A stretch of DNA of 25,061 bases from Promethearchaeota archaeon (GCA_016930515.1 JAFGGO010000090.1:1-25061); one strand, 5' to 3'. Shown: positions 1,293 to 18,468, counted from the stretch's first letter. Numbers and translations are program-made. The notes: generated by a model from the letters alone, not told the origin.

Positions 1293-1308
1293 TTTATGGT
1301 TTTTCATC

Positions 1309-1896: not shown

Positions 1897-1982
1897 TATT
1901 TATAATATCTTTATTTGACTATCTAAAAATTATTATTGATATCGAATAATTTACATTCTATTTCATATTTTTATAATTTACA

Positions 1983-3494
1983 TTGAAAAGCTACGATGCT
2001 ATCTTCATTCATCCCCCGAAAAACACATTAGTTCCCAAAAGTATGAATTCGCATTTCGCAAGAGGGACTTATATTTTCGTTCCAATGGGAACATTTGCAA
2101 TTGCAGATCTATTAGAAAAAGAGGGTTTTAGCGTAAAAATAATTAATTATCCATTGGAAAAAATATTAAATCCACACTGGGATTTGCAAAAACATCTCAA
2201 GGAGTTTGAATTTGAATTATGTGGCATAGATCTGCATTGGTTGCATAATTCTTATGGAGCAATAGAAGTTGCAAAGAGCGTCAAGCATGTTAATCCAAAC
2301 GCCAAGGTTTTATTTGGAGGATTTAGCGCTTCTTATTATCACGATGAAATATTGAATCATTTCAAGGTTGTTGACGGTATCGTACGAGGGGAAGGCGAGA
2401 TTCCTTTTTTACAATATCTTAGGGAATATAAAAAGGGATCTGACCTAAGTAATGTTTCTAATTTAACATATAGGAACACATGTGGAAGTATTAAAGTAAA
2501 TCCCTTATCTTATTGTGCCAAAACCTTGGAAAACCTCAATTTTACAAATCTTTCTTTAATGGATCACGCAAAAGAATACATCGAATCGTGTAAAAAGATA
2601 ATGGGAATACCATTCAATTTATCGATCGGTAGGGGATGCCCTTTTAATTGTCCTTTTTGCTCTGGAGGCCAGCAATCGCAACAAAAATTAACGGGTCGCA
2701 TAAAAGTACTTTTAAGAGATCCAAAAAAAATTCTTGATGATATATCTACTTTATATGATGATTATAAAATAGAAAGCGTGTTTTTTGGTCATGGTACATA
2801 TCCTGCTACTTTTAAATATTGGAAAGAATTGTTTGGGTTAATTCGGAATGAAAAATTCGATATTGGTGGTGATATTGAGATCTGGAGATTACCATTTCCT
2901 AAAGATATGTGGAAATTATATTACAAAACATTTACTCAACAAAATACATCTATTAGCATCTCTCCTAGGACTTTATCTCAAAAAGTTCAGAACATGATAG
3001 CCAAAATATGCGATCCAACTTTTAAATTTCCAGAGAATCAAATCGAGAGCTTAATAAAGAACGCTAATTTATATGGTTTGACATTAAGGATTTGGTTGAC
3101 TATTGGTTATCCGTTTCAGACATTAAAAGATATAATCAAGGATTTTTATTTTACTTACAAATGCTTTTGGAAATATGGATTATCCAAATCGAATTCAATT
3201 ACATTTATGAATGAACCATACTATATTTTCCCAAGCTCCCCCGTACATGAACAACCTGAAAAATTTGGATTAAAATTAAAATATAAATCCTTCCTAGAAG
3301 TAATGAACGCCTTTAAACGCTCAAAAATTTCATTTTTTTACAATATTATCAATTACGATAAAAAACACATGTCTGGAGTTTCAATTCAAAACTTGAATAA
3401 GTTACTTCTGGTTAGTTCAATTCCAATGTTTTTAACAGCAAGCAAGAAGAAAAAAGATAAAAAAAAATTAAAAACAAATCCTCCAGAATTATAG
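1983..3494 (+). CDS. B12-binding radical SAM protein, Ta0216/CloN6-like subfamily
   Basis: N-terminal cobalamin-binding domain with GIDLHW..GAIEVA and FGGFSASYY, then RGEGE and GRGCPFNCPFC. TTG start. Confidence 0.8.
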   Translation: MKSYDAIFIHPPKNTLVPKSMNSHFARGTYIFVPMGTFAIADLLEKEGFSVKIINYPLEKILNPHWDLQKHLKEFEFELCGIDLHWLHNSYGAIEVAKSVKHVNPNAKVLFGGFSASYYHDEILNHFKVVDGIVRGEGEIPFLQYLREYKKGSDLSNVSNLTYRNTCGSIKVNPLSYCAKTLENLNFTNLSLMDHAKEYIESCKKIMGIPFNLSIGRGCPFNCPFCSGGQQSQQKLTGRIKVLLRDPKKILDDISTLYDDYKIESVFFGHGTYPATFKYWKELFGLIRNEKFDIGGDIEIWRLPFPKDMWKLYYKTFTQQNTSISISPRTLSQKVQNMIAKICDPTFKFPENQIESLIKNANLYGLTLRIWLTIGYPFQTLKDIIKDFYFTYKCFWKYGLSKSNSITFMNEPYYIFPSSPVHEQPEKFGLKLKYKSFLEVMNAFKRSKISFFYNIINYDKKHMSGVSIQNLNKLLLVSSIPMFLTASKKKKDKKKLKTNPPEL

Positions 3495-3572
3495 AAATAA
3501 GAATTTCATTTATTCAAAGCCTTTTAATAGCACTGTGATTTATATTATTTTATAATTCCAAAAGGTGCATAA

Positions 3573-4289
3573 TTGGTGTTTAAAGCGAAAAAAATATTGA
3601 AAATCAATGTACTTTTAATCGTAATTTTTTTGCTTGCTGACATCCCATTATCGCTTGTTTTGGTTTATTTAGAGAATATTCCTCCTTTTTTGGCATTATT
3701 TTTTGAGTATGTCGAATGTGGGCGCTCAATTTTTATACCATTTTTTCCAAAAATAAATATTTTAGGATTCTTACCGAACGCGGAAGAAATAACCAAATTC
3801 ACATTTGGACATTTGTTCGACATCATCATAGTAGCTAATTTGATCTTACTCGTAGAGACGATAATATATCATTATTATATCAAGAGGAAAGTGAATAATA
3901 AAAAAATTCAGAAATTAATCGGTTTTCAGATATGTCTTGAAGATTTTATCGATAACCCCTCTCATGAATTCTATCCTGATATGGAAAATTTAGAATCTAA
4001 AGAAGATATCATACAAGTATACTTCAAAAATTCTGCGAATAGTTACCTTTACGATAAAGAATTAGATAGTAATGAAATTCATCTTGTGACTAAAAAAGAA
4101 AAATCAAATTTTTTGATTCCTCGTATTTTTTTAAAATTCCATAAAAAATGCGATATAGGGCTATCTTCGTTAAATTTTAAACCATATTCGCCCGAAAAAA
4201 TATCTATTTTATATTCTTTTTCTAAAGCTTTCCTCGTGAACTGTACTCCTTCTTATCCTTGCATTCAAATTCGAGAGGTGGAGCAATAA
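3573..4289 (+). CDS. Hypothetical membrane protein
   Basis: 238 aa with 2-3 N-terminal hydrophobic segments and a soluble C-terminal half. AGGTG RBS before the TTG start. Confidence 0.6.
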   Translation: MVFKAKKILKINVLLIVIFLLADIPLSLVLVYLENIPPFLALFFEYVECGRSIFIPFFPKINILGFLPNAEEITKFTFGHLFDIIIVANLILLVETIIYHYYIKRKVNNKKIQKLIGFQICLEDFIDNPSHEFYPDMENLESKEDIIQVYFKNSANSYLYDKELDSNEIHLVTKKEKSNFLIPRIFLKFHKKCDIGLSSLNFKPYSPEKISILYSFSKAFLVNCTPSYPCIQIREVEQ

Positions 4290-4327
4290 AAATGTGGAAT
4301 ATTCTCTTTCTTATTAACAATAATCGA

Positions 4328-4335
4328 TTTATATA
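4328..4335 (+). promoter_or_regulatory. Candidate TATA box of the core operon
   Basis: TTTATATA in the intergenic gap, about 70 nt upstream of ATG 4402. Confidence 0.35.
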
Positions 4336-4401
4336 TGATTTAAACATTATAAAATTTTTAAAACTAAAAAAATCAACAAATTCAAAAATTAGGTGAAAAT
4401 T

Positions 4402-5772
4402 ATGGATTGGAGTAATGAAATGAAAGAAATGTTTGAGAAAGTAATGTCGATGACGCCAGAAACATTTCGTGAATCGATAAAACCAATGTGGAAAGAAGCC
4501 GCTGAAAAAACAGCAACGCTGAGAAACTCGGGTTTTATTTCCAAGGACGATTTAATTTCGTCTTTATTCGAAATAACTCCTCAAGCATTCCAACCGACGG
4601 TAGTTAAAGATTTAGAAACGCTTGGTATCGATACAGATCGTTATATTAAGATATCTGAAGCGAGAAAAGCCTATACTCGAACATGGGACGAGCTCAGCGG
4701 AGCATTTTTACCAGGGGTATATCATTTTACCATATATTTAACTGATCGATGCAATCAAAATTGTCTCCATTGTGCTGCTGCGGTAATGGATAAACGTCCA
4801 GAATTGCCCACGGAGACTTGGATTGATATTATTGAAAATCTTGAACAGAGTTTGCGAAAACAGAATCGAAGAGGATGTTACATATGGTTTGGGGGAGAAC
4901 CTACTATTCGCAAGGATTTAAAAGACTTAATCAAATATTGCGGAGATAAGGGATATTATCAAGCGGTTGCCACAAATGGAATTTTATTTAATGAGGAACT
5001 TGCAAAATTATGTGCAGATGTTAAGATGAGTCACGTCTTTATTAGCTATGATAGTACTGATCCTAAAAGAGCAGCTAAAATTAGAGGGTATCCCAAAGCA
5101 AAAGAAGCCGCTGAAAAAGCAATTGAAATGGCTTCAAAATATGGTCTTTTTATCATTGGCAACGCAACTGCTCAGAAAGAGAATTTCGATGAATTGGAAA
5201 CCCTAAAAAATTATTTCGATTCAAAGGGCGTAATTCCCTATTTTAGACCATTGATCAAGCAACGTTCTGCGGATAAAAATTGGGAAGAAATAGGATTAAA
5301 CATGGACGAATATCGACAATTCTACGATTTCAAATATAAACATGTTATAGAAGCTATCAGAAAGGGAGAAGGTTCAACGCTTAATAAATTCTATACCTGG
5401 GACATGGTGCCTTTCATGGAGTGTCCTATTAACGATAAGGAACGCGCAGCGATAGAATGGGGTACGGGATGTCAGGCGTGCCGTTCTATTTCCGGAATTG
5501 ACATCAACGGAGATGTATTTCCATGTGATTATCCTTCAGAATTAACCTTGGGCAATGTTCTAGAGCAAGGTTTTGACGAAATTATGGAAACAGAAATGTT
5601 CAAGGCTATTAGAGATAGAAAAATAAAGGGAAAATGTGCAACTTGCCATCATCTTGAATTATGTGGTGGGGGTTGTAGAGTTCACGCTGAAAATGAAACA
5701 GGCGATTTTCTGGCACCGTTTCCATTTTGCTGGCATAAAAACACTCATAAACACGAAAATCAAGAAAATTAA
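4402..5772 (+). CDS. Radical SAM/SPASM protein with an N-terminal DUF2621/PCP_red-like module
   Basis: CNQNCLHC, FGGEP and ATNG motifs. SPASM cysteines: GCQAC..GDVFPC..CATCHHLELCGGGC..PFC. Start moved from GTG 4393 to ATG 4402, because AGGTGA at 4391-4396 is the RBS and MDW matches the MEW start of the paralogs. Confidence 0.88.
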   Translation: MDWSNEMKEMFEKVMSMTPETFRESIKPMWKEAAEKTATLRNSGFISKDDLISSLFEITPQAFQPTVVKDLETLGIDTDRYIKISEARKAYTRTWDELSGAFLPGVYHFTIYLTDRCNQNCLHCAAAVMDKRPELPTETWIDIIENLEQSLRKQNRRGCYIWFGGEPTIRKDLKDLIKYCGDKGYYQAVATNGILFNEELAKLCADVKMSHVFISYDSTDPKRAAKIRGYPKAKEAAEKAIEMASKYGLFIIGNATAQKENFDELETLKNYFDSKGVIPYFRPLIKQRSADKNWEEIGLNMDEYRQFYDFKYKHVIEAIRKGEGSTLNKFYTWDMVPFMECPINDKERAAIEWGTGCQACRSISGIDINGDVFPCDYPSELTLGNVLEQGFDEIMETEMFKAIRDRKIKGKCATCHHLELCGGGCRVHAENETGDFLAPFPFCWHKNTHKHENQEN

Positions 5773-5784
5773 AGGCGAGAATAA

Positions 5785-7185
5785 ATGGAATGGGAAAATA
5801 ATACTCAAATCCTCTTTAATAGGATTGTAGAACAAATGCCGCAAGGATTTAGACCCTCAGTTGAACCTTTAATCTTAGAAGCTTCTGAAAAACGATGTCT
5901 TGAACGAAATGGAGCATATATCAATGATGCGGATGTGGTTTTAGGTATTTTTGACATTATCCCCGAAGCATTTAAACCCGTCATGGTCGAGGACTTAACG
6001 GCTTTAGGAATAGATGTGGAAAGATATATCGAACTTAGGGATATAAAAGATAGATTAAAGGTCTCTTGGGAAAAACTAGAACGAGGATTCCATCCAGGAA
6101 ACATTCATTTTGCCATGTATCTTACCGATAAATGCAATCAAAGATGCATTCATTGCGCTGCAGATGATTTAATACCCAGACCAGAATTACCTTCTGAACA
6201 ATGGATCCAAATCATAGAAAATGTCGAAACAGGTCTTAGAAAACAAGGAAGACACGCCTGCTTCGTATGGTTTGGAGGAGAACCAACATTACGTAAAGAC
6301 ATTGGCGAAATAATGAAATATTGCAACGATAAAGATTACATTCACGCCCTTATTACAAACGGCGTTCGATTTGATGATGAATTCGCAAAAATGTGTAAGA
6401 AAAATAATATTAGCCATGTGTTCGTTAGTTTTGATAGCGTTGACCCTGAAAAGAATGATAGATTACGAGGATTTAAAAACTCCTTACAATATGCAAAGAA
6501 AGCCATTGACATGTGTCTTAAATACGGAATTTTCGTTTGTTCTTCCATTACGATTATGAAAGATAATATTAACGAACTTGAAGAATTGAAAGCTTTATCT
6601 GAGAAATGGGGATCTCAACCTTATTTTAGGTGCGTTGTAAAACAAAATCGAGCTGCAGAACATTGGAGCGAAATAGGCCTTTCGAAGGAGGAATATAGAA
6701 AAATGTACGATTTTAAATTTAAACACGCTATTGAAACGATAAGAAATGGTCAGGCTGGAACTCTTCCTGCTTACGAAATCTACGACATGATGCCATTCAT
6801 GGAAAAACCCAAATCGGATAAAGAACTCGCAGCGATCGAATGGGGTGTAGGTTGTTTGGCTTGTAGGACGATGATGGGGGTAGGGATCGATGGTACTATT
6901 TATCCAGCGGGATATCCTACAAATCTAACGCTTGGAAATGCACTAAAAGACAATTTCGAGGATGTATTGAACTCCCAACTCTATAAAGATATTCGGGATA
7001 GAAAAAGGATAAAAGGAAAATGCGCCAGTTGTCATCATCTTGAACAGTGCGGAGGAGGTTGTCGCGTGACCTCTGAATATATCACGGGAGATTTCTTTGG
7101 CTCTTTCCCGTTCTGCTGGCACGAGAACGATCACGAACACGATACAATTGATTTAAAGAAGAAAGAGATTGAATTAATTGAATGA
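5785..7185 (+). CDS. Radical SAM/SPASM protein with an N-terminal DUF2621/PCP_red-like module (tandem paralog of 4402-5772)
   Basis: CNQRCIHC, FGGEP, ITNG, GCLAC and CASCHHLEQCGGGC..PFC. Collinear with the upstream gene over its full length. Confidence 0.88.
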   Translation: MEWENNTQILFNRIVEQMPQGFRPSVEPLILEASEKRCLERNGAYINDADVVLGIFDIIPEAFKPVMVEDLTALGIDVERYIELRDIKDRLKVSWEKLERGFHPGNIHFAMYLTDKCNQRCIHCAADDLIPRPELPSEQWIQIIENVETGLRKQGRHACFVWFGGEPTLRKDIGEIMKYCNDKDYIHALITNGVRFDDEFAKMCKKNNISHVFVSFDSVDPEKNDRLRGFKNSLQYAKKAIDMCLKYGIFVCSSITIMKDNINELEELKALSEKWGSQPYFRCVVKQNRAAEHWSEIGLSKEEYRKMYDFKFKHAIETIRNGQAGTLPAYEIYDMMPFMEKPKSDKELAAIEWGVGCLACRTMMGVGIDGTIYPAGYPTNLTLGNALKDNFEDVLNSQLYKDIRDRKRIKGKCASCHHLEQCGGGCRVTSEYITGDFFGSFPFCWHENDHEHDTIDLKKKEIELIE

Positions 7186-7200
7186 CCAAGAGGTGAAAAT

Positions 7201-8616
7201 GTGCGAGTATTAATTCTCTCGGCTAGTAGGGAAATTGTCCACGTGATGGTTCCTCCATTGGGAGAAGCATATTTAGCTTCATATTTGCTCTCTCGAGGGC
7301 ATGAAGTAATATTATTGGACTTAACTTTGAGTAATGATTATAAAAAAGATATTTCGAACACTATTTTCGATTTTAATCCTCAAGTCATTGGCATTTCGAT
7401 TCGTAACATTGATTCGACTACATATCCGGGAAATTTATTCTTTTATCTTCCCGTGAAAAATGTCATACAATATGTAAAACAGCTCGTTGAACCAGATATC
7501 CCCATAATACTGGGAGGTGCGGGCTTTTCCATTTTTTCGGAAGAAATTCTAAAGGATTTAAATCATAAAATGGGAATCATAGGTGATGGAGAATATGTTT
7601 TCGAGGCAATAATCAAAAAACTTCAAAATGGTGAAGATCCACGCACAATAGAAAGAGGGGTTTGTTATTTGGATAATCAAGGAAATTATCACCAAACTCC
7701 GCCGTGGCGCGTGGAAAATTTAGACGAATTGCCTTTTCCCATAAGGGATATGATGGATAACGACGCATATCTCATTGATCCATTAGTTCAATCTGGACCT
7801 TTTTGGGGAAATATTCAAACTAAACGGGGTTGCCCCATGAATTGCATATATTGTAGTTATAGATATATAGAAGGCTCTAATGTTCGATATCGTTCTCCCA
7901 AAAATATAGCCGAAGAATTAGATTTAATCGTGAATAATTATGATATAAAAAATGTATTCATTGTCGATAGTCTTTTTAATATTGATTATAAACACGTAAA
8001 AGAAACTTGTATAGAAATTAATAATCAAAATTTAGATTTTAAATGGGGCGCAAATTACGTTCCGAGCAATAAATTTATAGATTTAATGCCGCTCATGAAA
8101 GAAAGCGGAGCGGCTCATTTTGCAACTGGAATTGAATCCTTATCCGAAGATATGCTAAAAAATATGAAAAAAAATAGGACTGCTGACGAGGCAATGCTCA
8201 CATCTAAAAGATGTGTAGAATTGGAAATAGAACAATTAATGCATGTAATGGTTGGAGGGCCAGGAGAAACTCGAGAAACGATTCAAGCGTCTTTAGATCG
8301 CTTGGAAATGATGGAAAGCTACCACGGAGCACTTTGGCAAGGGGATGGAGACGTTCTCATCTTCGTGGGTATAAGAATTTATCCTAATACCATCCTTCAA
8401 ACTATTGCAGTAAAAGATGGTATAATAAAAAAAGGAGAAAACCTGTTAAAACCTAAATTTTACCTAACACCGAACATTAAAGAAGTCGATCTTTTTCAAA
8501 TCGTTCGGAATTATGGTATTAAAAATCCCAGGTGGATGATGCCTGGTCTGGGATTTAATAATCCCAAAGGATTTGCTGAAATGAGTAATATACAATTCGC
8601 AAAATATCAAAATTAA
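7201..8616 (+). CDS. B12-binding radical SAM protein, GISIRNID type (BzaD/TsrM/ladderane-cluster-like group); putative C-methyltransferase
   Basis: PPLG, GISIRNID, LGGAGFS, GDGE, QTKRGCPMNCIYC and GGPGET motifs. AGGTGA RBS at 7191-7196 before GTG. Confidence 0.8.
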   Translation: MRVLILSASREIVHVMVPPLGEAYLASYLLSRGHEVILLDLTLSNDYKKDISNTIFDFNPQVIGISIRNIDSTTYPGNLFFYLPVKNVIQYVKQLVEPDIPIILGGAGFSIFSEEILKDLNHKMGIIGDGEYVFEAIIKKLQNGEDPRTIERGVCYLDNQGNYHQTPPWRVENLDELPFPIRDMMDNDAYLIDPLVQSGPFWGNIQTKRGCPMNCIYCSYRYIEGSNVRYRSPKNIAEELDLIVNNYDIKNVFIVDSLFNIDYKHVKETCIEINNQNLDFKWGANYVPSNKFIDLMPLMKESGAAHFATGIESLSEDMLKNMKKNRTADEAMLTSKRCVELEIEQLMHVMVGGPGETRETIQASLDRLEMMESYHGALWQGDGDVLIFVGIRIYPNTILQTIAVKDGIIKKGENLLKPKFYLTPNIKEVDLFQIVRNYGIKNPRWMMPGLGFNNPKGFAEMSNIQFAKYQN

Positions 8617-8662
8617 CCATAAAAAATTCAAAATAAAAAACTTATAATGTAGGAGAAAAAGA

Positions 8663-9835
8663 ATGGAATGGAAACCAGAAGTAAAAGAATTATATGATAA
8701 AATAGTAGAAAAGATGCCGGAATTTATAAAACCCGTTATTGCACCAGAGCTTTTGAAAAAGGTCGAGATTAAATGTATAGAAAGGAACGCACAAAAAATT
8801 GCTGAAATGGATTTAATAGTAGGTTTATTTGAAGTAACGCCTCCTACTTTCCAACCAACAGTAATTGCAGATCTGGAAGAAATGGGCGTGTCTTATGATA
8901 GATATCTCGCAAAAGTGAAATCTGATTTTAAATGTAATACTGATCTTAATCAGATGATCGAAGATATTTCTAAAATTTGTGATATTTCAAGTGTAACTTT
9001 CAATAGAGAAGCGATGTGGAAATCTTTCAATACCTTTAAAGATTTTTTTAAGGGTGCTCCCGTTTCGATCAGAACAACCACTAAACCTATTGAAAAAAGG
9101 GATGTAGCAGTAAGATATGTGGAATTTTTTATGCCTCACAATCCAGATCCTTATACCATGGCAATAAAAGAAGGTTTGCTCTTGAAAAATGGACATCCAA
9201 TTCACGAAATGATTATCGAATCTATGAATACTTTCGAAATGATGGGATACGGAGTTGATGTAGATGCAAAGATGGGGCTATCGAAGATTTGGCCTTTTGT
9301 AGTACCTGGTTCGATCGAACCTATTTTTTCAATGAAATCCGTACCGCCAGCATTTAAAAAATACAAGCAATATTTTGAAGAACACGGTTTAACAGTATTC
9401 AGTCTTTTTGCGTTCGACTTTTTAAATCATACAATGAATATTTATTTCATGCTCAAGCAACCAGCGCAATCCACACATGAAAGTTGCGTAAAATTGGTGG
9501 AAGATTTGGGACTTACTCCCGCATCTGAGGAAATAATGGAAGGGTGTCGCAACGCGGCTCATTTAAACTATACATTTAGTTGGGAATCAGGAAAAATCGA
9601 ACGATTATGCTTTGGTGTGACTGTTGATGACGAAAAAGATGTTCCAACACATCTACATCCTTTAATTAAAGAATTCGTTGAAAAAGCCCCCCTACAGAGC
9701 GAATCGAGAAAATTTATTTGGGGCGCAACTTTTACACCAAGAGGAGTTTATTATAAAATTGAAAATGATTACAATGGTACGATGGTGGATTTCTTAGGAA
9801 TGGGATGCAAGGCAGGAATTGAAAAATATAATTAG
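8663..9835 (+). CDS. ABBA-family aromatic prenyltransferase (NphB/CloQ type) with an N-terminal DUF2621/PCP_red-like module
   Basis: After about aa 90 there is a ~300-aa domain with DPYTMAIKEGLL..GHPI, YGVD....GLSKIWPF, MNIYF, YTFSWESGKIERLCF and YYKIENDY. These match recalled NphB/CloQ motifs (DPY..v.kGL...gHP, GfkKty.F, NLYF, TL.W...kI.RLCF, YyKl). Confidence 0.8.
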   Translation: MEWKPEVKELYDKIVEKMPEFIKPVIAPELLKKVEIKCIERNAQKIAEMDLIVGLFEVTPPTFQPTVIADLEEMGVSYDRYLAKVKSDFKCNTDLNQMIEDISKICDISSVTFNREAMWKSFNTFKDFFKGAPVSIRTTTKPIEKRDVAVRYVEFFMPHNPDPYTMAIKEGLLLKNGHPIHEMIIESMNTFEMMGYGVDVDAKMGLSKIWPFVVPGSIEPIFSMKSVPPAFKKYKQYFEEHGLTVFSLFAFDFLNHTMNIYFMLKQPAQSTHESCVKLVEDLGLTPASEEIMEGCRNAAHLNYTFSWESGKIERLCFGVTVDDEKDVPTHLHPLIKEFVEKAPLQSESRKFIWGATFTPRGVYYKIENDYNGTMVDFLGMGCKAGIEKYN

Positions 9836-9864
9836 ATTTGTCTATTTTATAGGTGATTTTTAAA

Positions 9865-11016
9865 ATGAGAATAATAATCGATGGACCAATAAACAAGGAT
9901 TTAATTACTAAAATTAAAAATCAAGGGTTTCCAGTGACACATTGTATAATACATGTGCCACAAAACCCTATGGGAAATTCGTCAATTTTTCTTCCTAAAA
10001 AAATTCCTTCTTTCGATGATTTCAAAGATATTACTTCATTTTTATTAGATAACGATATTATTCCAATTGCTGGATTGGATTCGACTTGTCAAGGGAATCT
10101 TGAGGCTCACATACAGCAATATAATGCAATAAATGCATTAATTCAAACTTTAGAGGCTATAGGTTATAAGGATATATTGGTTTCTTCTCCAAATAATATT
10201 GGATTTTTTAAAGAACATGCGCCATCAATGAAGATTGTTTTATCATATTCACAATATGTAACCTCAATCAATAGGGGTAAAATCTTTTTTGAAATAGGTG
10301 CAGACTCTATTATTCTCCACCCAGATATAATTAGGTATTTTAATATATTGAAGAATTTTATCAAGCTAAAAAAGCAATTTAAATCGTCTAAAGATATAGA
10401 TTATATTTTACCATTAAATATCGGATGTAATTGGGGGTGTATTCATTGGTATCATCATCATAACCTGCAGAGTCATCGTACTACAAATTCTCCTGTTTTT
10501 TCAAATCAAGAAAATTTATCCAATGTTTTATATGAATTTGATTATCCACTATTAAACTGTTGGAGAGAGAGAATTAAAAATCCAGAAAATATTTTAAAGG
10601 CGGGATGGATATCGCCAGTAAATATAGGTAAATACGAGAATTTAGGATACGATACATTTACTCTCTATACGAATGGATTTTCGAACGAAAAAACAATGGA
10701 AATCATCAATAACTATGTTGAAAAGCGAAACAAAATGAGCTTAAAAAACATCATTAACATTCCTGAACCCTATGGAGAATATTGGAAGCAGATGGAAGGC
10801 AAGGACTTTTTGTTCGATTTAAATACATCTGAAATAGAGACTTTTTGTTTGAATTATCCGTATGAAGCTCACTATCCTTCGGAAAAAATCATAAACGAAT
10901 ATTGTAATGATTTTACTAAAATTTTGAAAATAAGAAGCTCTAAAGAAAGAGAAAATGTATTAACAACAATAAAAAATAAAATAAAAAATATGGAAAAAGG
11001 AGCCATTACGAGGTAA
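9865..11016 (+). CDS. Divergent peptidase U32-family (Fe-S hydroxylase-like) protein
   Basis: Aligns with the two downstream U32 genes (LDSTC, NIGCNWGC..H....SH, GWISP...Y..LG). Start moved to ATG 9865, with RBS AGGTGA at 9851-9856. Confidence 0.7.
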   Translation: MRIIIDGPINKDLITKIKNQGFPVTHCIIHVPQNPMGNSSIFLPKKIPSFDDFKDITSFLLDNDIIPIAGLDSTCQGNLEAHIQQYNAINALIQTLEAIGYKDILVSSPNNIGFFKEHAPSMKIVLSYSQYVTSINRGKIFFEIGADSIILHPDIIRYFNILKNFIKLKKQFKSSKDIDYILPLNIGCNWGCIHWYHHHNLQSHRTTNSPVFSNQENLSNVLYEFDYPLLNCWRERIKNPENILKAGWISPVNIGKYENLGYDTFTLYTNGFSNEKTMEIINNYVEKRNKMSLKNIINIPEPYGEYWKQMEGKDFLFDLNTSEIETFCLNYPYEAHYPSEKIINEYCNDFTKILKIRSSKERENVLTTIKNKIKNMEKGAITR

Positions 11017-11020
11017 AAAG

Positions 11021-13060
11021 ATGAGGATATCCTTGGCATGTAATTGGAAATTAGATTTATTAGATTTAATCGAACAAGATTCTAATCTAAAGAATGTAGT
11101 TAATGATTTTTACGGAACTCCAGATATGAATTTTACTGGATCTGGTCGTCCCTTCTTTCTTATGGCGAAAAGAAATAGAAACGAGATTGAAAATTTTATT
11201 AATAAAGTCCACGATTTAGGCTTAAAATTTACTTGGTTATGGAATGGTGAATGTCTTGGATACTATAAATTTAATTCACAAGAGCAAACGAAAGCGTTAA
11301 ACGAATTAGATTGGATAGATGATATGGAAATTGAATATCTAACAGTTACGGATCCATATTTAGCTCAATTTGCCAAATATTACCATCCAAATTTAAAGCT
11401 TAAAACATCTGTTATTGCTGAAATTAATTCACTCACACGAGCACTCCAATGGCAAGATATTATCGGTTCAGAAGGAGTGTTAACTTTATCAATAATGTTG
11501 AATCGTAATTTTCCTTTACTCGAGGAAATTAGAGATACAATAACTTGTGATATCGAATTACTGACTAACGATTGCTGTCTCAACGAATGTCCATATCGAT
11601 TTTTTCATTACAATGAATGTTCACACGCCAGCCAAACGCACGACTTTCTTGAGGGATATTACAATGATTGGGCTTCTATTGCATGCCAGAACCAGAAGTG
11701 CTTCAATCCTGAGCAAGTTATTATGTGTAAATGGATACAACCCTTAGATCTAGAAAAATATATCAATATGGGCATTGATTACTTTAAAATATCAGGTAGA
11801 AGATACGGAACACGCTGGATATTTAACGCTTTAAAAGCATATACTAGCAAAAATTTTAAAGGAAACCTTGGAGAAATTTTTAATGGTTATTCATTTGTCT
11901 CAGATCCCTTGATACTAGCTGGGAACCAATTCTCTGAATTCTCAATAAAGCAGGAAAAAATGGGCACCCACGCCGATAATCAAAGCATAATGTTAAGCGT
12001 ACCAGAATTTGACGCAAAATTAAAAGCTGATTTGTTAATTGACTTCGTACAAAATTTACCTTATGGTGGTGCCCGATGTGCAGAAAATTGCGGTGTATCT
12101 TGCTTTTATTGTCATAGTTACGTTAATAAAGCCTATTTTCAACCAGAAGGAGGTATAACCGAATCTTATAAGAAATTCATGTCCTATCTTTATAATTATC
12201 TGAATAAAGGAGAAATGTTTCTCTCAAAAGAACAAAGAAAACTTAAGAATCCTGTTAAAGAATCGGAATCAAATACTTATATTGGAATTCCCTGGGATCC
12301 TAAAGCACAAGAATTTCTTGATGAAGTAATGATATTGATACCAAAAGAAATGCAAGAGCCGGCAAAAAAAGGAATAGGCTTTACAGCTGAAAGGACTGCT
12401 GAAAAGCAAAATAAAACGAAAGTTAATATCGAGTTATTAATCGCAATAATTCTTGAATTAGTTCCTCAACCTTTCAAACGCGATTATATTGAATTTTTAA
12501 TTGAAAAAAAAATCAAATTATCGAACTATATGAGTGAAGCTGAAATAAGACAAATCAAAAATATACCATTTAGCAACCAATTAATCCCCCTGAAGAATAA
12601 TGAAGGGGAAATAAAAACGAATATAAATAAAATAAAAGAAAAACAAAATAAAAAAAAGGTGAAAATAAAATTGAATACAAAAGAAGAATGGGAAGCATAT
12701 CTCACGCGCTTTATGAAAGCATACAATGAATTACCAGATGTGGAGCAAATGCTTGAACCAATCGGATCGGTGGTATTTCAATATGAAATAACCGATAAAC
12801 CCGAGATGAGTTATTGGCAATACATCAATGGCAAAAAGATGGATTGGGGAATGGGTAAATTTTCTAATGGAGATATTCCAATGGTCATACATAAAACGAA
12901 TTTTGAAACGATAAAAAAAGTAAATTCTGGAGAATCTGACCCCATCCAAGCAACAATGGCTGGTAATTATGTAGTAGAAGGAGATGTTACCAAGCTCATG
13001 GCCTGTGCACCCTTGCTTCCGCTTAATGCGAAAGCGCATGAACAAGTGTTTAAGAATTAA
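11021..13060 (+). CDS. U32-family Fe-S protein fused to a DUF2621/PCP_red-like module and a C-terminal SCP2 domain
   Basis: GSGR, WNGEC, NDCCLNECP, GIDYFKISGR and CAENCGVSCFYC motifs. Module at about 12290-12530. SCP2 signature SGESDPIQATMAGNYVVEGDVTKLM within about 12680-13040. Confidence 0.82.
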   Translation: MRISLACNWKLDLLDLIEQDSNLKNVVNDFYGTPDMNFTGSGRPFFLMAKRNRNEIENFINKVHDLGLKFTWLWNGECLGYYKFNSQEQTKALNELDWIDDMEIEYLTVTDPYLAQFAKYYHPNLKLKTSVIAEINSLTRALQWQDIIGSEGVLTLSIMLNRNFPLLEEIRDTITCDIELLTNDCCLNECPYRFFHYNECSHASQTHDFLEGYYNDWASIACQNQKCFNPEQVIMCKWIQPLDLEKYINMGIDYFKISGRRYGTRWIFNALKAYTSKNFKGNLGEIFNGYSFVSDPLILAGNQFSEFSIKQEKMGTHADNQSIMLSVPEFDAKLKADLLIDFVQNLPYGGARCAENCGVSCFYCHSYVNKAYFQPEGGITESYKKFMSYLYNYLNKGEMFLSKEQRKLKNPVKESESNTYIGIPWDPKAQEFLDEVMILIPKEMQEPAKKGIGFTAERTAEKQNKTKVNIELLIAIILELVPQPFKRDYIEFLIEKKIKLSNYMSEAEIRQIKNIPFSNQLIPLKNNEGEIKTNINKIKEKQNKKKVKIKLNTKEEWEAYLTRFMKAYNELPDVEQMLEPIGSVVFQYEITDKPEMSYWQYINGKKMDWGMGKFSNGDIPMVIHKTNFETIKKVNSGESDPIQATMAGNYVVEGDVTKLMACAPLLPLNAKAHEQVFKN

Positions 13061-13120
13061 AAAAAAACAAAAAACATTTTTTTTTATCAAACAAAAATTA
13101 AAAAAATTAGGTGATAATAC

Positions 13121-14527
13121 ATTCGATTCAATGTCGCAACTAACTGGGATTTAAAATTGATTGACGAATTAGCGAAATATCCCGTTTCTGATTTATATGG
13201 TGCATCAAACCATTCTATTGTTGGTGGTGGTCGACCTTCCTTTTTACTTCCAGATGTTAATGATGAATACATAGCAGAATATATTAAAAAAGTGCATGAG
13301 AAAAAAATGGAATTTTCTTTTCTACTAAATGCTCCCTGCATGAATAATATGGAAACAAACTCTCAGTATCATAAGGAACTTATCGATTATTTACAATGGA
13401 TTACTGATATCGGAGCGGATAATGTGATCGTTACGATCCCATTCTTGATACAAATCATCAAAGAACAATTTCCCAACTTGAAAGTTCGTGTTTCAACAAT
13501 TTCACATATAAATAGCGTAAACCGTGCAAAATTTTACGAAATGCTAGGGGCTGATGAAATAACACCTGATATCATGATAAATCGAGATTTTAAAACATTA
13601 AACAAGATAAAGAAAGCTGTAAAATGTAAGATCGTTTTACTTCTGACTGATGGATGTCTTTTTCAATGTCCTTTCAGACACTATCATTATAATACTCTTG
13701 GACACGCTTCGCAAACACACCAACAATTTGAGCGTAATTATGTAGATACATGCATTATTAATTGTTCAGTGATTAAATTTTCAAATCCAGAGGAAGTTCT
13801 TAAATGTAGATGGGTGCGTCCGGAAGATTTATCTCATTACGAAGACATCGGGATTACGGATTTTAAAATCGCGGGAAGGCGAATGACTACTGATTGGATT
13901 CTTAGAGCGGTTAAAGCTTTTTCCTCTCGTAAATACGATGGAAACCTTGTGGACATTATTCAAGGCTTTTCGATGTCTCACGGTGGTTTAGAACAAAAAG
14001 ATCCTAATCTTACACTCTCTAAAACAGTTGGAAAGGAGTCCCAATCAAAATTATACATCGATAATTCAAAATTAGATGGATTTATTGAGTTTTTTAAAAA
14101 GCAAAATTGTGTTGCGATGTGTGATGAGTGTAATTATTGCAAGGAGTGGGCCAAAAAAGCCGTCATATTAAATAAAGAAGAATCGGAAAAATATGTACGA
14201 TCCCTCCAAGCTTATATAGACGATCTTAAGACAAGTAGAGAATTTGGAATTTCAAAAAAGGACTCTAAAATAGAAAAATCGAATGGATTTAAATGGTTAC
14301 CCGAAACAGAAAGATTATTTAACGAACTCATTGAATTATCTCCACAACAATTTCAATCAATCGCCAGAATGGTCATCGCCTCCCTCGCAGAGGAAAAAGC
14401 AAAAAAAAGAGCCTCGTTAGAAGTTCAAAATCAAGATATCGTTAGCGCATTTATTGAAGGTACACCAGGACCATTCCAAGCAGATATGAAGGATGGCCTT
14501 AAAAAACGCGGACTTTTAAAAGAATAA
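13121..14527 (+). CDS. U32-family Fe-S protein with a C-terminal DUF2621/PCP_red-like module; probable ATT start
   Basis: GGGRP, LNAPC, DGCLFQCP, FKIAGR and CVAMCDECNYC motifs. The frame extends upstream of TTG 13157 as (I)RFNVATNWDLKL, homologous to MRISLACNWKLDL. RBS AGGTGA at 13109-13114 and an in-frame stop at 13115. Confidence 0.82.
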   Translation: MRFNVATNWDLKLIDELAKYPVSDLYGASNHSIVGGGRPSFLLPDVNDEYIAEYIKKVHEKKMEFSFLLNAPCMNNMETNSQYHKELIDYLQWITDIGADNVIVTIPFLIQIIKEQFPNLKVRVSTISHINSVNRAKFYEMLGADEITPDIMINRDFKTLNKIKKAVKCKIVLLLTDGCLFQCPFRHYHYNTLGHASQTHQQFERNYVDTCIINCSVIKFSNPEEVLKCRWVRPEDLSHYEDIGITDFKIAGRRMTTDWILRAVKAFSSRKYDGNLVDIIQGFSMSHGGLEQKDPNLTLSKTVGKESQSKLYIDNSKLDGFIEFFKKQNCVAMCDECNYCKEWAKKAVILNKEESEKYVRSLQAYIDDLKTSREFGISKKDSKIEKSNGFKWLPETERLFNELIELSPQQFQSIARMVIASLAEEKAKKRASLEVQNQDIVSAFIEGTPGPFQADMKDGLKKRGLLKE

Positions 14528-14673
14528 CATGGAGGAAAAAAAATTAACCTTATATAGTTTTGGCTCAAAGATTAGCACTATATGAAACCTAAATTTTATA
14601 AAAATTTATGAAAATAAAAAATATCTATAAAAACAATGAATAATTAAAAAAAAAACGAAAAAAAGTGAATAAA

Positions 14674-15603
14674 ATGGAAGGAATATATTTTGATGTCGTA
14701 TTTCCATTAGTATTACTTGCTTGTCTATTATTTTTGATATTACGTGGTATATCTAAAAAATATCCTGAACAAGAATATATGACAAAATCCGAATTTATGA
14801 AGGATTGGCTTAAAGACCACGGACAAGCACATAAGCTAGACGAACAATTTGAAAAAATGCAAAAAGACCCAGCTGGAAAAATATACATGCCATTAACTTA
14901 TAAAGGCGCAAAAATCTTTATGAAAATGGGCCTAACACCAAATCAAGTATCTATTGTAAATCTCATTTTATCGTTCTTTATTTTTTATGGCGTTATTATT
15001 GCTGTAAGAGGACAATCGTTGGATTTATATTCCCAACAACCGTTTTATGGTTGGCTATTTATTCCATTAGCCCTTTTAGTATTCTTTACTGGAATCGTGG
15101 ATGGAATCGATGGAGCAATCGCAAGATTACGAAATATTAAAACACGACGCGGTGGATGGTTCGATAATGTAATTGACAGGATTAGTGATACTTTAATGCT
15201 AGTTTGTTTTGTTCCTGGAACCATTTCTATCGTAATGGGCCTCGATTTTCGATGGGTTGTATGGACTAATATTATCTTGATATTTCTTTATGAATACATG
15301 AGAGCAAGGCACGAAGGATTAGGATTAAAAGAAACTAAACCGTTTATGGGAGAACGAATCACCAGGATATTAACTATGGGAACCTTTTTCTTAATTTACG
15401 GTATCTCGAGTTTTGGCGTTATGATAACTTTTTTGATTGATCCCCCTTCTGCTGAAACGCTTTGGGCAGTAACTCATGGTGGTGTAACGGCTTGGGTAAT
15501 GATAATTATGCAATTGAGCTTGTTATTAATAATGGTCTTTTCGTGTTTGAAATTAGCTAATTATTCTTACAAGGGATTGAAAGAGTTGGATAATAAAGAA
15601 TAA
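14674..15603 (+). CDS. CDP-alcohol phosphatidyltransferase family protein
   Basis: TPNQVS plus the signature DGIDGAIAR-x7-GGWFDNVIDRISD and multiple TM helices. The start is ATG 14674 or GTG 14665. Confidence 0.88.
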   Translation: MEGIYFDVVFPLVLLACLLFLILRGISKKYPEQEYMTKSEFMKDWLKDHGQAHKLDEQFEKMQKDPAGKIYMPLTYKGAKIFMKMGLTPNQVSIVNLILSFFIFYGVIIAVRGQSLDLYSQQPFYGWLFIPLALLVFFTGIVDGIDGAIARLRNIKTRRGGWFDNVIDRISDTLMLVCFVPGTISIVMGLDFRWVVWTNIILIFLYEYMRARHEGLGLKETKPFMGERITRILTMGTFFLIYGISSFGVMITFLIDPPSAETLWAVTHGGVTAWVMIIMQLSLLLIMVFSCLKLANYSYKGLKELDNKE

Positions 15604-15677
15604 ATAGGAGGCGAAACAAAACGAAAAAATTTAAAATAATAACCTATGGAACAATAATTGCAGTATATTATGTATTA

Positions 15678-16973
15678 TTGCATTTTATTTTTCCCAACTC
15701 GTGGGTATCTGTTACTAAAAATTCCATCGATAACTTCTTTACGAATTTTTTTGTATATTGGTGGTTAGTATTTCCGTTACTTGCCCTTCTTTTACTTTTT
15801 GGATTGAATATCTATTATGGGATACATTTTTTGGCTTCATTTGGAACTGGTTATAAACCTAAAGGTGATAATTACGAAAATATTACCATTATGATTGCTT
15901 CCAAGAACGAAAAAGCACTATTGGAAAGAACATTAAAATCCATAATGGATAACGATTACCCTAAAGAAAAGATTCAGTTAATTGTAATAACTAGCGGATC
16001 GACTGATGGATCGGCTGAATTTTGTGAAAAATTTTTCAAACAAAATAATACTATTAAAGCTGATATTATATCTGCCGATCTTCCTAAAAAAGGCAAACCA
16101 ACTGCCCTAAACTATGGATTAAAACTTGTAAAACATGATATAATACTTTTTTATGATTCTGGTTGCATTTTACAAAGAAATTCCTTGAAAAATTTAATTG
16201 CACCTTTAAAAGACCAGAAAAAAAAAGCTGTAATTGGACCCGTATTGGTTGAAAATTGGAACACTAATAAAATTACCAAGGGAATTTTTCTTGATTATGC
16301 AATCGTCTCTGGAGGTGGATTGCTTTTTGAAGTAAAGAATAGGTTAGGTTCTTCTGCATATTTATATGGACGTAATTTTGCGATTCGGACAGAATTATTG
16401 AAAAAATACGGTGGATTTAACGAAGATTCCATGACAGAAGATCTTTATCTTCATATACTGCTCAATTTAGATGGAATTAAGATTTATTATTCACCCAAAG
16501 CAAGAGTATATGAATATGTACCTCATACATCGGAAATATTGAAAAAACAAAGAACCAGATGGATTGCAGGATATACAGTCGATGCGCCCCAATTAATGGC
16601 CATGAAGAACGAAGAAAGAGATGGTAAAAAGATTATTATTGCTAGAAACATGACTATGACTTTTATAGGAAATATGGATACTTGGATGCCAATAATAATC
16701 GTTTTTACAATAATATATGCTCTCATAGGAGAATATTACTTAATGATATGGAATTTATCCCTTTTGTTCTTTCAATTCGGGTTTTTATTCAACGCTATTA
16801 GGAAATACGCTGATGGGCATTATAGTTTATTATTTTACTTTCTTGTTAGCGGTTATATCCACCTATACATGTTCTTACGTCAATTTTCCCTTCCTAAAGA
16901 ATTGAGTTGGGAAAAAACACCGATGATACTAGAAAGACAAGAAGAAGAAGTAAAGGCTTTAACTATTAAATAA
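15678..16973 (+). CDS. Membrane glycosyltransferase family 2 (cellulose synthase/IcaA-like)
   Basis: ASKNE, GSTD, GKPTALN, TED and QRTRW motifs, with N- and C-terminal TM helices ending in WEKT. Confidence 0.85.
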   Translation: MHFIFPNSWVSVTKNSIDNFFTNFFVYWWLVFPLLALLLLFGLNIYYGIHFLASFGTGYKPKGDNYENITIMIASKNEKALLERTLKSIMDNDYPKEKIQLIVITSGSTDGSAEFCEKFFKQNNTIKADIISADLPKKGKPTALNYGLKLVKHDIILFYDSGCILQRNSLKNLIAPLKDQKKKAVIGPVLVENWNTNKITKGIFLDYAIVSGGGLLFEVKNRLGSSAYLYGRNFAIRTELLKKYGGFNEDSMTEDLYLHILLNLDGIKIYYSPKARVYEYVPHTSEILKKQRTRWIAGYTVDAPQLMAMKNEERDGKKIIIARNMTMTFIGNMDTWMPIIIVFTIIYALIGEYYLMIWNLSLLFFQFGFLFNAIRKYADGHYSLLFYFLVSGYIHLYMFLRQFSLPKELSWEKTPMILERQEEEVKALTIK

Positions 16974-17019
16974 TTCTTTTATTTTTACTTATTAAATATC
17001 TAATTTAGTTCGATAACAA

Positions 17020-18468
17020 ATGAAAATATATCTAATTAACGCTGCACCGACGATAATATCCAAAGATAACAAAAAGGAAACTCTATTTCAAACTTCAGCA
17101 CCCCCTTTGGGATTAATGTATCTTGCATCGGCCCTCAAAAATGCAGGACACGCCGTATTCATCGTGGATCAACCGGCCTTCAATCTCACAAATGAGGAAG
17201 TTATAGAATTTATCAAGAAAAAAGATCCGGATGTTGTTGGATTTTCAACATTATGTGCTTCTTTTGAAAATGTAAAAGAAATATCTAAAGAACTAAAAAA
17301 ATGGAACCCTAATCTATCAATTATAGTTGGCAATTATCTTGCCACTTTTTATGCACATAACATATTGACAAAATACGATTGGGTCGATATTTGTGTGAGG
17401 GGTGAAGGTGAAAAAACCGCTCCTGAAATTTTAAATCGATTAGAATCCAATAAAGACCTTAGCGAAGTCGAAGGAATTAGTTATAGAAGCAATGGAAAAA
17501 TAATAGAAAACAAGGACAGACCATTGATAAAAGATTTAGATTCGATTTCTTTTCCAGATAGAAAACTCCTTCCAGCCTTTTATAAAAATAGGATCGGAGG
17601 TGTTGACATTACTAAACGAAAATTTGCAACAATGGTCTCTTCGAGAGGATGCCCTTATTCATGTAATTTTTGCGCTTGTACGGCCTTTTCGAAAGGATTA
17701 TGGAGGACAAGATCTGTTGATAACATTATAGACGAAATATCCATGTTATCAGATGAGGGCTATCGGGAAATTCTTTTCATAGATGATAATTTTACGCTTA
17801 ATCAAAAAAGAATAAATGAATTTTGCATCAAAATTAGAAAGCAAAATTTAGATATTGTTTTTATAGGAGATGGTAGGGTAAATAATGGGTCTGTTGAATT
17901 ATTTAAAACTCTAAAAAAAGCTAACTTTGAAATCTTAATGTTTGGCATTGAAAGTAGCTCCCAAAGAGTTTTAGATTCTTATAACAAAAAAATAACGCCT
18001 GAAATGAGCAGAACCGCGGTAAACAATGCTAGAAAGGCGGGTTTTAAATTTCTTGTTGGGACTTTTATGATTGGTGCTTATGATGAAACCTACCAAGAAG
18101 CAATAGACACGCTTAAATTCATTTCCTCATTGGACATTGATTTTCCACATATAATTTTCACTCGCGCATTACCTGGTACTCAAATTTTCAACGAACTCAT
18201 AAAAAAGAAAATTATTGATGAAGAACAGTTTTGGGAAACAGGTGTAGACATCATCGATTTACCAGGTTCAAAAATGAACAGAGAAGTTATTTTCAAGATT
18301 ATTAAGGACCAATTTCACTTGAAATTTTTTAGACCGAAATACATAATGAAAGCGTTCACAAGAACATTAATAAGCAAGTATAGACGAGAAATAATATTCA
18401 ATCACTTAAATCTTCGAGATATTAATAAATTTGTAAAGATTATTAACAATCCTCCCGATTTATTTTAA
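17020..18468 (+). CDS. B12-binding radical SAM protein (class B methylase-like)
   Basis: PPLGLMYLA, RGEGE, SSRGCPYSCNFC, DDNFT and FGIES motifs. Confidence 0.88.
   Translation: MKIYLINAAPTIISKDNKKETLFQTSAPPLGLMYLASALKNAGHAVFIVDQPAFNLTNEEVIEFIKKKDPDVVGFSTLCASFENVKEISKELKKWNPNLSIIVGNYLATFYAHNILTKYDWVDICVRGEGEKTAPEILNRLESNKDLSEVEGISYRSNGKIIENKDRPLIKDLDSISFPDRKLLPAFYKNRIGGVDITKRKFATMVSSRGCPYSCNFCACTAFSKGLWRTRSVDNIIDEISMLSDEGYREILFIDDNFTLNQKRINEFCIKIRKQNLDIVFIGDGRVNNGSVELFKTLKKANFEILMFGIESSSQRVLDSYNKKITPEMSRTAVNNARKAGFKFLVGTFMIGAYDETYQEAIDTLKFISSLDIDFPHIIFTRALPGTQIFNELIKKKIIDEEQFWETGVDIIDLPGSKMNREVIFKIIKDQFHLKFFRPKYIMKAFTRTLISKYRREIIFNHLNLRDINKFVKIINNPPDLF

What the first reader, a model, noticed from the sequence alone, without database searches (positions are those of the whole stretch)
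4402..14524. One ~75-aa helical module (DUF2621/PCP_red-like) is fused to five enzymes of three unrelated families: candidate docking or metabolon tag
Seen: an ungapped motif W-x15-P-x15-E-x24-P-x2-F-[QK]-x6-L. It is N-terminal in both SPASM proteins (4402-4640, 5785-6025) and the prenyltransferase (8663-8905), internal in U32-SCP2 (12290-12530) and C-terminal in the third U32 (14291-14524). It is absent from the other genes. Established: it resembles DUF2621 and the PCP_red domain at the C-terminus of BchB/ChlB, whose functions are poorly defined. Inference: its position-independent reuse points to a portable interaction domain that assembles a complex, binds a common carrier or electron donor, or targets the enzymes to a membrane. 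It also independently links these enzymes to one pathway.
Basis: partly seen in the sequence, partly recalled or inferred. Interest (0 to 1): 0.9.

Follow-up and report, generated by a model that had tools for sequence, protein, structure and literature searches.

The report
Shared DUF2621-type tag on pathway enzymes
One small helical domain of unknown function is attached to five enzymes of three unrelated families in a single Asgard archaeal operon. It marks them as one pathway and probably acts as a non-catalytic adaptor, but what it binds is still untested.

Summary
Five ungapped copies of an ~85-aa module lie at the stated coordinates, with invariant W, P, E, P, F and L, and nowhere else in the 4.0-Mb genome. 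Pfam DUF2621 picks out exactly these five.

The module belongs to the DUF2621/PCP_red superfamily. Of 146 relatives, 109 hit DUF2621 and 42 hit PCP_red. It folds confidently (pLDDT 92) as a five-helix bundle.

"Five enzymes" amounts to three fusion types, because the two SPASM proteins are paralogues and so are the two tagged U32 proteins. All three types recur in other Asgard archaea and in a second clade, where the same prenyltransferase carries the module at its C-terminus instead.

Elsewhere the domain stands alone or is fused to about ten other enzyme families. It has no conserved Cys or His.

My best reading is a non-catalytic adaptor or oligomerisation tag for a soluble pathway acting on a hydrophobic prenylated aromatic compound (about 0.4). 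The rivals are an intramolecular cap, a ligand or carrier binder, electron-donor docking and membrane targeting.

The one complex prediction gave no answer. The pathway link is well supported; the mechanism is not shown. The scan's other notes on this stretch are first-reader notes only.

The parts
4402..4650 (+). Module copy 1, N-terminus of rSAM-SPASM protein 1 (gene 4393-5772)
   Evidence: HMM hits. Pfam DUF2621 25.5 bits, profile positions 56-137.
5785..6033 (+). Module copy 2, N-terminus of rSAM-SPASM protein 2 (gene 5785-7185)
   Evidence: DUF2621 18.8 bits in the same register.
8663..8911 (+). Module copy 3, N-terminus of the ABBA (PTase_Orf2) prenyltransferase (gene 8663-9835)
   Evidence: AF2 of the module alone gives pLDDT 92.3 and pTM 0.82. 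The full fusion gives pLDDT 93.6 and pTM 0.88.
12287..12538 (+). Module copy 4, between the U32 core and the SCP2 domain of U32b (gene 11021-13060)
   Evidence: It also gives a weak PCP_red hit (16.8 bits).
14288..14521 (+). Module copy 5, C-terminus of U32c (gene 13157-14527; probable true start is ATT at 13121)
   Evidence: DUF2621 27.5 bits against a cut-off of 27.7. The start was examined.
12686..13057 (+). SCP2 lipid-binding domain at the C-terminus of U32b, joined to the module by a K/N/E-rich linker
   Evidence: Pfam SCP2 residues 572-666, 21.2 bits against a cut-off of 21.3. Conserved in relatives.
9853..11016 (+). U32a, a divergent U32 paralogue without the module, always next to U32b
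   Evidence: BLASTP to U32c E 8e-24. Orthologues lie beside U32b in L002 and L024. No module hit.
7201..8616 (+). Untagged B12-binding radical SAM enzyme inside the tagged block
   Evidence: Pfam B12-binding plus Radical_SAM. Nearest NCBIfam models are TIGR04072 and BzaD, both below cut-off. A 77%-identical orthologue sits at the same place in L002.
3573..4289 (+). Conserved 238-aa protein of no known family, with a hydrophobic N-terminal part, directly upstream
   Evidence: No Pfam hit. A 34%-identical orthologue occupies the same position in the Thor-type locus L002.

Best explanation
The module is a non-catalytic, cofactor-free helical domain of the DUF2621/PCP_red superfamily. I read it as an adaptor. 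It gives the soluble enzymes of one pathway a common binding surface, most simply by associating with other copies of itself or with one shared partner. This would hold the prenyltransferase, the radical-SAM/SPASM enzymes and the U32 hydroxylase-like enzymes together around the SCP2-bearing U32a/U32b core that carries the hydrophobic intermediate.

Shown: five homologous copies confined to this operon; a confident independent fold; the same three fusion types conserved in other archaea; the module at either end of the same prenyltransferase family; stand-alone, tandem and many other fused forms elsewhere; no conserved Cys or His.

Inferred: that it binds protein at all, what it binds, and that a complex forms.
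For: 1. The same domain sits on three unrelated folds in one operon and nowhere else in the genome.
2. In 26 of the 301 Asgard genomes searched that carry it (window genome included), the copies sit together on one or two contigs. Counts run from 1 to 10 per genome, with two clusters in two genomes.
3. The tagged trio recurs in a Thor-labelled locus (six copies) and in an uncultured archaeon (five copies).
4. The prenyltransferase carries the module N-terminally in Asgard archaea and C-terminally in seven members of a second clade.
5. The U32 fusions use variable, low-complexity linkers. The last Cys motif lies 40-62 residues from the module in 14 of 16 sequences (range 8-338), as expected of a tethered unit.
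6. Tandem copies exist, as expected of a self-associating domain.
7. Fusions to SCP2 occur in both orders, and to a NuoE-like [2Fe-2S] subunit that is followed by a NuoF-like gene. Both are parts of multi-protein systems.
8. About 67 of 146 relatives are stand-alone proteins of 75-120 aa, so the domain works as a unit of its own.
9. Conserved positions are W, P, P, F, L and small or hydrophobic core residues. No Cys or His is conserved, so there is no metal or cluster site.
10. Precedent: in E. coli the SCP2 protein UbiJ organises a soluble multi-enzyme ubiquinone complex, and UbiU-UbiV (U32) with UbiT (SCP2) form the O2-independent branch (PMC6747719).
Against: There is no direct evidence of any interaction.

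The prenyltransferase fusion is predicted as one compact body (pTM 0.88). Its linker is almost invariant, at 5 residues by my measure in nearly all of 123 sequences. That fits an integral accessory domain as well as a tag.

Six enzymes of the operon, U32a and five B12-rSAMs, carry no module.

Stand-alone relatives sit in unrelated gene contexts with no recurring neighbour. The superfamily's general role therefore cannot be specific to this pathway.
Confidence: 0.4

Rival explanations
1. The module is an integral accessory domain. It packs against its own catalytic barrel and caps or shapes the cavity for a hydrophobic substrate, with no role in joining enzymes.
For: The full-length prenyltransferase model gives pTM 0.88, with module pLDDT of 84-92 and only a shallow dip (74) at the junction. 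Linker length is nearly invariant across 123 N-terminal fusions and identical in the 7 C-terminal ones. [quoted passage not shown] All three host folds are barrels that take hydrophobic substrates (established knowledge of ABBA, radical-SAM and U32 folds).
Against: One small domain would need three different interfaces on three unrelated folds. The U32 fusions have long, variable, low-complexity linkers. Many stand-alone and tandem forms exist. I could not verify that the BchB helix cited lies inside the PCP_red region. No contact map was available, so the packing is inferred from pTM alone.
Confidence: 0.28
2. The module recognises something chemical that all tagged enzymes share: a constant part of the pathway intermediate, or the loaded SCP2 carrier. 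This would resemble the way RRE domains on several RiPP enzymes bind one leader peptide.
For: It sits N-terminal to rSAM-SPASM enzymes, where RREs sit (established knowledge of RiPP maturases). Module and SCP2 are repeatedly fused, in both orders. The Thor-type locus has four SCP2 units beside six modules.
Against: The fold is helical, not the winged helix of RREs, and there is no PqqD hit. No conserved polar pocket residues are evident. Stand-alone relatives occur in unrelated contexts.
Confidence: 0.2
3. The module docks a common electron donor, such as ferredoxin or flavodoxin, for the iron-sulfur enzymes.
For: Most host families elsewhere are redox enzymes: rSAM, U32, a NuoE-like ferredoxin, PNPOx, HpaB and FMN reductase. 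BchB belongs to a ferredoxin-fed system (PMC7242693).
Against: The prenyltransferase, a SAM methyltransferase and VOC proteins need no electrons yet carry it. The five B12-rSAM enzymes of the operon, which need reduction, lack it.
Confidence: 0.07
4. The module targets the soluble enzymes to the membrane, or to a membrane receptor such as the conserved 238-aa protein upstream.
For: The Pfam DUF2621 profile has about 55 further N-terminal positions that the module does not cover. A conserved hydrophobic protein of unknown family precedes the cluster here and in L002. The last steps of the operon are membrane enzymes, a CDP-alcohol transferase and a GT2.
Against: The module is highly charged and predicted as a compact globular bundle. 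No 238-aa homologue was seen within 5 kb upstream in L024, and its downstream side is cut off by the contig end. Nothing was tested directly.
Confidence: 0.05

Closest known systems
Pfam DUF2621 (PF11084), including the stand-alone 85-90-aa 'DUF2621 domain-containing' proteins of Omnitrophota and Bacillota
   Same: All five copies match profile positions ~55-137 in one register. Of 146 relatives, 109 match, the best at 6e-12. Predicted folds superpose at TM 0.89/0.91.
   Different: The window copies score 17.6-27.5 bits, just under the 27.7-bit cut-off. They lack the first ~55 profile positions. They are fused to enzymes rather than free. The family has no known function.
PCP_red domain (PF08369) at the C-terminus of BchB/ChlB of dark-operative protochlorophyllide reductase; NMR structures 2KRU and 2L09
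   Same: The first ~45 residues (strand, helix, P, helix, strand) match PCP_red weakly. 42 of 146 relatives hit it, the best at 6e-9. Fold likeness to 2L09 is Z 6.0, and TM is 0.56-0.61 by target.
   Different: No window copy reaches the 32.5-bit cut-off. The module has two extra helices carrying the TP..F...L..G.D motif. There is no nitrogenase-like host and no tetrapyrrole context.
RiPP recognition elements (PqqD-like RRE) fused to several tailoring enzymes of one gene cluster
   Same: One small non-catalytic domain is reused on unrelated enzymes of one cluster. It is N-terminal on rSAM-SPASM enzymes and also occurs stand-alone. This is a functional analogy from established knowledge.
   Different: The fold is different (a helical bundle, not a winged helix). 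There is no PqqD hit and no precursor peptide gene. The cluster has SCP2 and an NphB-type small-molecule prenyltransferase.
UbiJ/UbiK- and UbiT-organised ubiquinone biosynthesis (UbiU-UbiV U32 hydroxylases plus an SCP2 protein)
   Same: U32 paralogues plus an SCP2 domain act with a prenyltransferase on a presumably hydrophobic aromatic substrate. SCP2-centred complexes of soluble enzymes provide a precedent (PMC6747719).
   Different: The Ubi proteins carry no DUF2621-like domain. The prenyltransferase here is a soluble ABBA enzyme, not UbiA. The U32 matches are weak. The product is unknown.
AAA+ lid (C-terminal helical) subdomain, e.g. BchI (1G8P), MCM, Rpt
   Same: These are the best structural matches to the first ~60-70 residues (Z 7-7.9, rmsd 1.7-2.8 Å).
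   Different: Z is below the level the tool calls meaningful for helical bundles. There is no sequence signal and no ATPase domain beside it.

Membership tests
DUF2621 (PF11084) | Score at or above Pfam's gathering cut-off (27.7 bits) | tested here: inconclusive
   The five copies score 17.6, 18.8, 23.0, 25.5 and 27.5 bits. In the genome scan one reaches 28 bits 'with its neighbours'. All are in one register, and the hits are the only ones in the genome.
DUF2621 (PF11084) | Homology at family level through relatives | tested here: met
   109 of 146 relatives found with the five-copy profile hit DUF2621, the best at E 6e-12. The Atlas's nearest clusters and fold matches are DUF2621 proteins.
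DUF2621 (PF11084) | Coverage of the whole 139-position profile | tested here: not met
   Matches cover only positions ~45-137. The first third of the profile has no counterpart.
PCP_red (PF08369) | Score at or above the gathering cut-off (32.5 bits) | tested here: not met
   Only copy 4 hits at all, at 16.8 bits and E 0.007, or 15.8 bits in the genome scan. 42 of 146 relatives hit at E <= 0.01.
PCP_red (PF08369) | Same fold as the solved PCP_red domains 2KRU and 2L09 | tested here: inconclusive
   2L09 gives Z 6.0 over 57 residues. 2KRU gives TM 0.56 by target at Foldseek E 0.7. Both lie within the range of unrelated helical bundles.
PCP_red (PF08369) | Location at the C-terminus of a BchB/ChlB nitrogenase-like subunit | tested here: not met
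   The hosts are rSAM-SPASM, PTase_Orf2 and U32 proteins.
RiPP recognition element (PqqD-like) | Winged-helix fold with a three-stranded sheet, and a PqqD-family sequence match | tested here: not met
   The model has five helices and two 2-residue strands. No PqqD hit appears even at E <= 10.
Inter-enzyme docking or oligomerisation domain (functional class) | Demonstrated binding to another copy or to a partner protein | tested here: inconclusive
   The one prediction run, the PTase module against the module-SCP2 arm of U32b, returned 'no answer'. Wet-lab tests are needed.
UbiU/UbiV/UbiT-like O2-independent hydroxylase system (pathway context) | Paired U32 proteins plus an SCP2 domain | tested here: inconclusive
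   Three U32 paralogues are present (Pfam 30-50 bits; U32a only by BLAST to U32c), and SCP2 scores 21.2 against a 21.3-bit cut-off. The Fe-S ligand motifs and the activity were not examined.

The most novel reading that the evidence does not exclude
The DUF2621-type module is a general, portable docking domain. In this operon it assembles a soluble metabolon for O2-independent synthesis of a prenylated aromatic (quinone-like) lipid in Asgard archaea. It would be a small-molecule counterpart of RiPP RREs or PKS docking domains, and would give a function to the orphan PCP_red/DUF2621 superfamily, including the BchB C-terminal domain.
Probability: 0.2. Interest if true: 0.8.

Novelty: new variant of a known kind. 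Interest (0 to 1): 0.55.

Why it matters
DUF2621 and PCP_red are catalogued domains with no assigned function, and I found no paper that discusses them. This operon offers the clearest handle so far: one genome, one operon, and five copies on three enzyme folds, conserved across archaeal lineages.

If the module proves to be a docking or recognition tag, three things follow:
- It would explain how soluble enzymes cooperate on a water-insoluble intermediate.
- It would provide a sequence marker for finding further members of such pathways.
- It would suggest a role for the detached C-terminal domain of BchB/ChlB.

It also marks out an uncharacterised, patchily distributed Asgard gene cluster. 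That cluster combines an ABBA prenyltransferase, U32, SCP2 and radical-SAM enzymes, and its product is unknown.

Tried and rejected
- Complex prediction of the PTase module against the module-linker-SCP2 arm of U32b gave 'no answer' (score 0.00, mark 0.32, controls not run). This is neither support nor evidence against.
- Module-module, module-own-domain and module-238-aa-protein pairs could not be tried, because only one job was allowed.
- Sequence search of solved structures with the 5- and 146-sequence profiles found nothing significant. 2L09 and 2KRU appear only at E ~0.9.
- Foldseek against the PDB found nothing at E <= 0.001.
- The search for related loci with the module alignment failed because no stretch was conserved enough.
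- Gene contexts of the module-ferredoxin fusions and of several stand-alone copies lay on short contigs or showed no recurring neighbour.
- Literature searches for PCP_red/DUF2621, for this Asgard cluster, and for 2KRU/2L09/asr4154 returned nothing relevant.
- A paper on LPOR and nitrogenase evolution did not address the BchB C-terminal domain.
- The module tree is poorly resolved (89 columns), so I draw no order of fusion events from it.
- P0214, with 10 'stretches', is a low-complexity repeat protein and was ignored.
Full report
WHAT IS THERE

The window is a whole 25-kb contig of a 4.0-Mb, 35% GC genome. Close homologues of its proteins come from MAGs labelled Promethearchaeota, Thor-, Hod-, Hermod- and Odinarchaeota, so it is an Asgard archaeon.

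A co-directional operon encodes the following:
- a B12-rSAM (1983-3494)
- a 238-aa protein of no known family (3573-4289)
- two rSAM-SPASM proteins (4393-5772 and 5785-7185), nearest AhbD/NirJ/AhbC but far below their cut-offs
- a B12-rSAM (7201-8616)
- an ABBA prenyltransferase (8663-9835; PTase_Orf2, E 3.5e-58)
- three U32 paralogues: U32a (9853-11016), U32b with a C-terminal SCP2 (11021-13060), and U32c (13157-14527)
- a CDP-alcohol phosphatidyltransferase, a GT2, and three more B12-rSAMs

THE OBSERVATION

W, P, E, P, F and L are invariant at exactly the stated spacing.

This is not chance, for four reasons:
- A profile of the five copies finds only those five among all six-frame ORFs of the genome (E 1e-30 to 1e-39; next best 0.017).
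- A 146-sequence profile gives the same answer.
- Pfam DUF2621, which was built without these sequences, hits exactly these five places in the genome and nothing else, always at profile positions ~55-137.
- BLASTP alone links module regions across enzyme families.

One correction is needed. U32b and U32c are paralogues along their whole length, including the module, and the two SPASM proteins are paralogues too. There are therefore three fusion types: N-terminal on rSAM-SPASM, N-terminal on the prenyltransferase, and directly after the U32 core. They are not five independent events.

WHAT THE MODULE IS

A search of 1.84 billion representatives with the five-copy profile found 236 proteins at E <= 0.001. 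Of 146 aligned module regions, 109 hit DUF2621 (best 6e-12) and 42 hit PCP_red (best 6e-9). The module therefore belongs to a DUF2621/PCP_red superfamily. The window copies themselves stay just under both curated cut-offs.

The module folds confidently on its own (pLDDT 92.3, pTM 0.82). The order of elements is short strand, helix, P, helix, short strand, then three helices.

Matches to solved structures are weak and generic: AAA+ lid domains at Z 7-7.9, 2L09 at Z 6.0, and 2KRU at TM 0.56 by target. Predicted structures of stand-alone DUF2621 proteins superpose at TM ~0.9.

Conserved positions are W3, P19, R23, A/E 34-35, R41, V46, D50, T-P 59-60, F63, L71, G75 and D77. These are mostly core or turn residues. 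No Cys or His is conserved, so a metal or cluster site is unlikely.

WHERE ELSE IT OCCURS

Nearly all long hits belong to the same three enzyme families, down to 23-40% identity in the catalytic part.

A second prenyltransferase clade carries the module at the C-terminus. It contains seven sequences, including one from an uncultured archaeon and others labelled bacterium or Deferrimicrobium. In that archaeon the neighbours are U32a, U32b-module-SCP2 and module-SPASM. These are 58-63% identical to the window's proteins, and the genome again holds five copies.

A Thor-labelled locus has six copies and four SCP2 units.

Among 301 Asgard genomes searched (window genome included), 26 carry the module; 22 of 68 others in the window's own family do. 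Their copies sit together on one or two contigs. The cluster is thus an accessory island, and the module is confined to it.

Outside this pathway the domain takes many forms:
- stand-alone proteins of about 85 aa, roughly 67 of the 146
- tandem pairs
- fusions to a NuoE-like [2Fe-2S] protein that is followed by a NuoF-like gene
- fusions to a SAM methyltransferase, HpaB, PNPOx, LuxC, PNP_UDP_1, VOC/glyoxalase and FMN reductase

Stand-alone copies have no recurring neighbours.

HOW IT MAY WORK

The module is a promiscuous, cofactor-free domain that also exists on its own. That is the profile of a binding module, not of a catalytic one.

Within the operon, the most economical reading is a shared adaptor. 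The three host folds have nothing in common except the pathway. The U32 fusions tether the module by low-complexity linkers, with 40-62 residues between the last Cys motif and the module in 14 of 16 sequences. Tandem copies elsewhere suggest self-association. Repeated fusion with SCP2 points to the lipid-carrier hub known from ubiquinone synthesis (PMC6747719).

I put this reading at about 0.4. Every step beyond 'conserved shared domain' is inference.

The main rival, at about 0.28, is an integral cap on the enzyme's own barrel:
- The full prenyltransferase fusion is predicted as one compact body, with pTM 0.88 and junction pLDDT 74.
- Its linker is practically invariant in 123 sequences.
[quoted passage not shown] I could not check that this helix lies within PCP_red.

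No contact map was available, so the packing in the fusion is inferred from pTM alone.

A common-ligand or carrier reader in the manner of an RRE gets about 0.2. Electron-donor docking gets 0.07; it is disfavoured because the prenyltransferase is tagged and the B12-rSAMs are not. Membrane targeting gets 0.05. The only complex prediction I could run gave no answer.

COMPARISON AND NOVELTY

The domain family is catalogued but has no function, and I found no literature on it. The solved prenyltransferases nearest to this one are AmbP3/AmbP1, FamD1, EpzP, NphB and CloQ. They are about 290-310 aa long and lack the module.

Three things are new: a whole pathway's soluble enzymes share this tag, the arrangement is conserved across archaeal lineages, and the tag can sit at either end of the same enzyme. 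I file this as a new variant of a known kind.

Noticed in passing
window 13108-13160: U32c probably starts at ATT 13121, not at the first canonical start (TTG 13157). The 12 residues upstream (IRFNVATNWDLK) match the N-terminus of its paralogue U32b (MRISLACNWKLD). AGGTGA lies 7 nt upstream, and an in-frame TAA lies just before.
   Followed up: partly
L012 1148-2939: A protein with two tandem modules fused to a thioredoxin-like [2Fe-2S] (NuoE-like) domain is followed by a gene with a Nuo51 FMN-binding domain. The module therefore also occurs in NuoEF/HydBC-type flavoprotein complexes.
   Followed up: partly
L002 (Thor-labelled MAG, GCA_048882645.1) 1199-20355: This is a larger version of the cluster. 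It has six module copies, four SCP2 units (one fused to a third-type rSAM-SPASM and two free-standing), and an FAD_binding_4 plus CCG/Fer4_8 pair downstream.
   Followed up: partly
L024/L028 (uncultured archaeon, CAYGYC010000069.1) 6728-12656: U32a, U32b and SPASM are 58-63% identical to the window's proteins. The prenyltransferase between them is only ~42% identical and carries the module at the other end. The prenyltransferase gene seems to have been replaced or rearranged within an otherwise conserved cluster.
   Followed up: partly
search of 301 Asgard genomes: The cluster is patchy even within genera (12 of 28 in one genus, 2 of 22 in another). It is duplicated in two genomes (10 and 8 module copies on two contigs each). 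It behaves like an accessory biosynthetic island.
   Followed up: no
L001 7252-8273: A stand-alone module gene sits directly after a PNP_UDP_1 gene inside a type II polyketide-like cluster (two ketosynthases, ACP, cyclases, B12-rSAM). A PNP_UDP_1-module fusion fragment (P0155) also exists.
   Followed up: no
window 22536-24770, minus strand: Four small ORFs (130-159 aa) have only weak, sub-threshold Pfam matches to membrane proteins. They are unrelated to the finding.
   Followed up: no
window 12539-12685: The segment just after module copy 4 (IKNIPFSN here, IKSLPYGT in relatives) is conserved before the K/N/E-rich linker to SCP2. The U32b-type module may therefore extend a little beyond the common 85 residues.
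   Followed up: no
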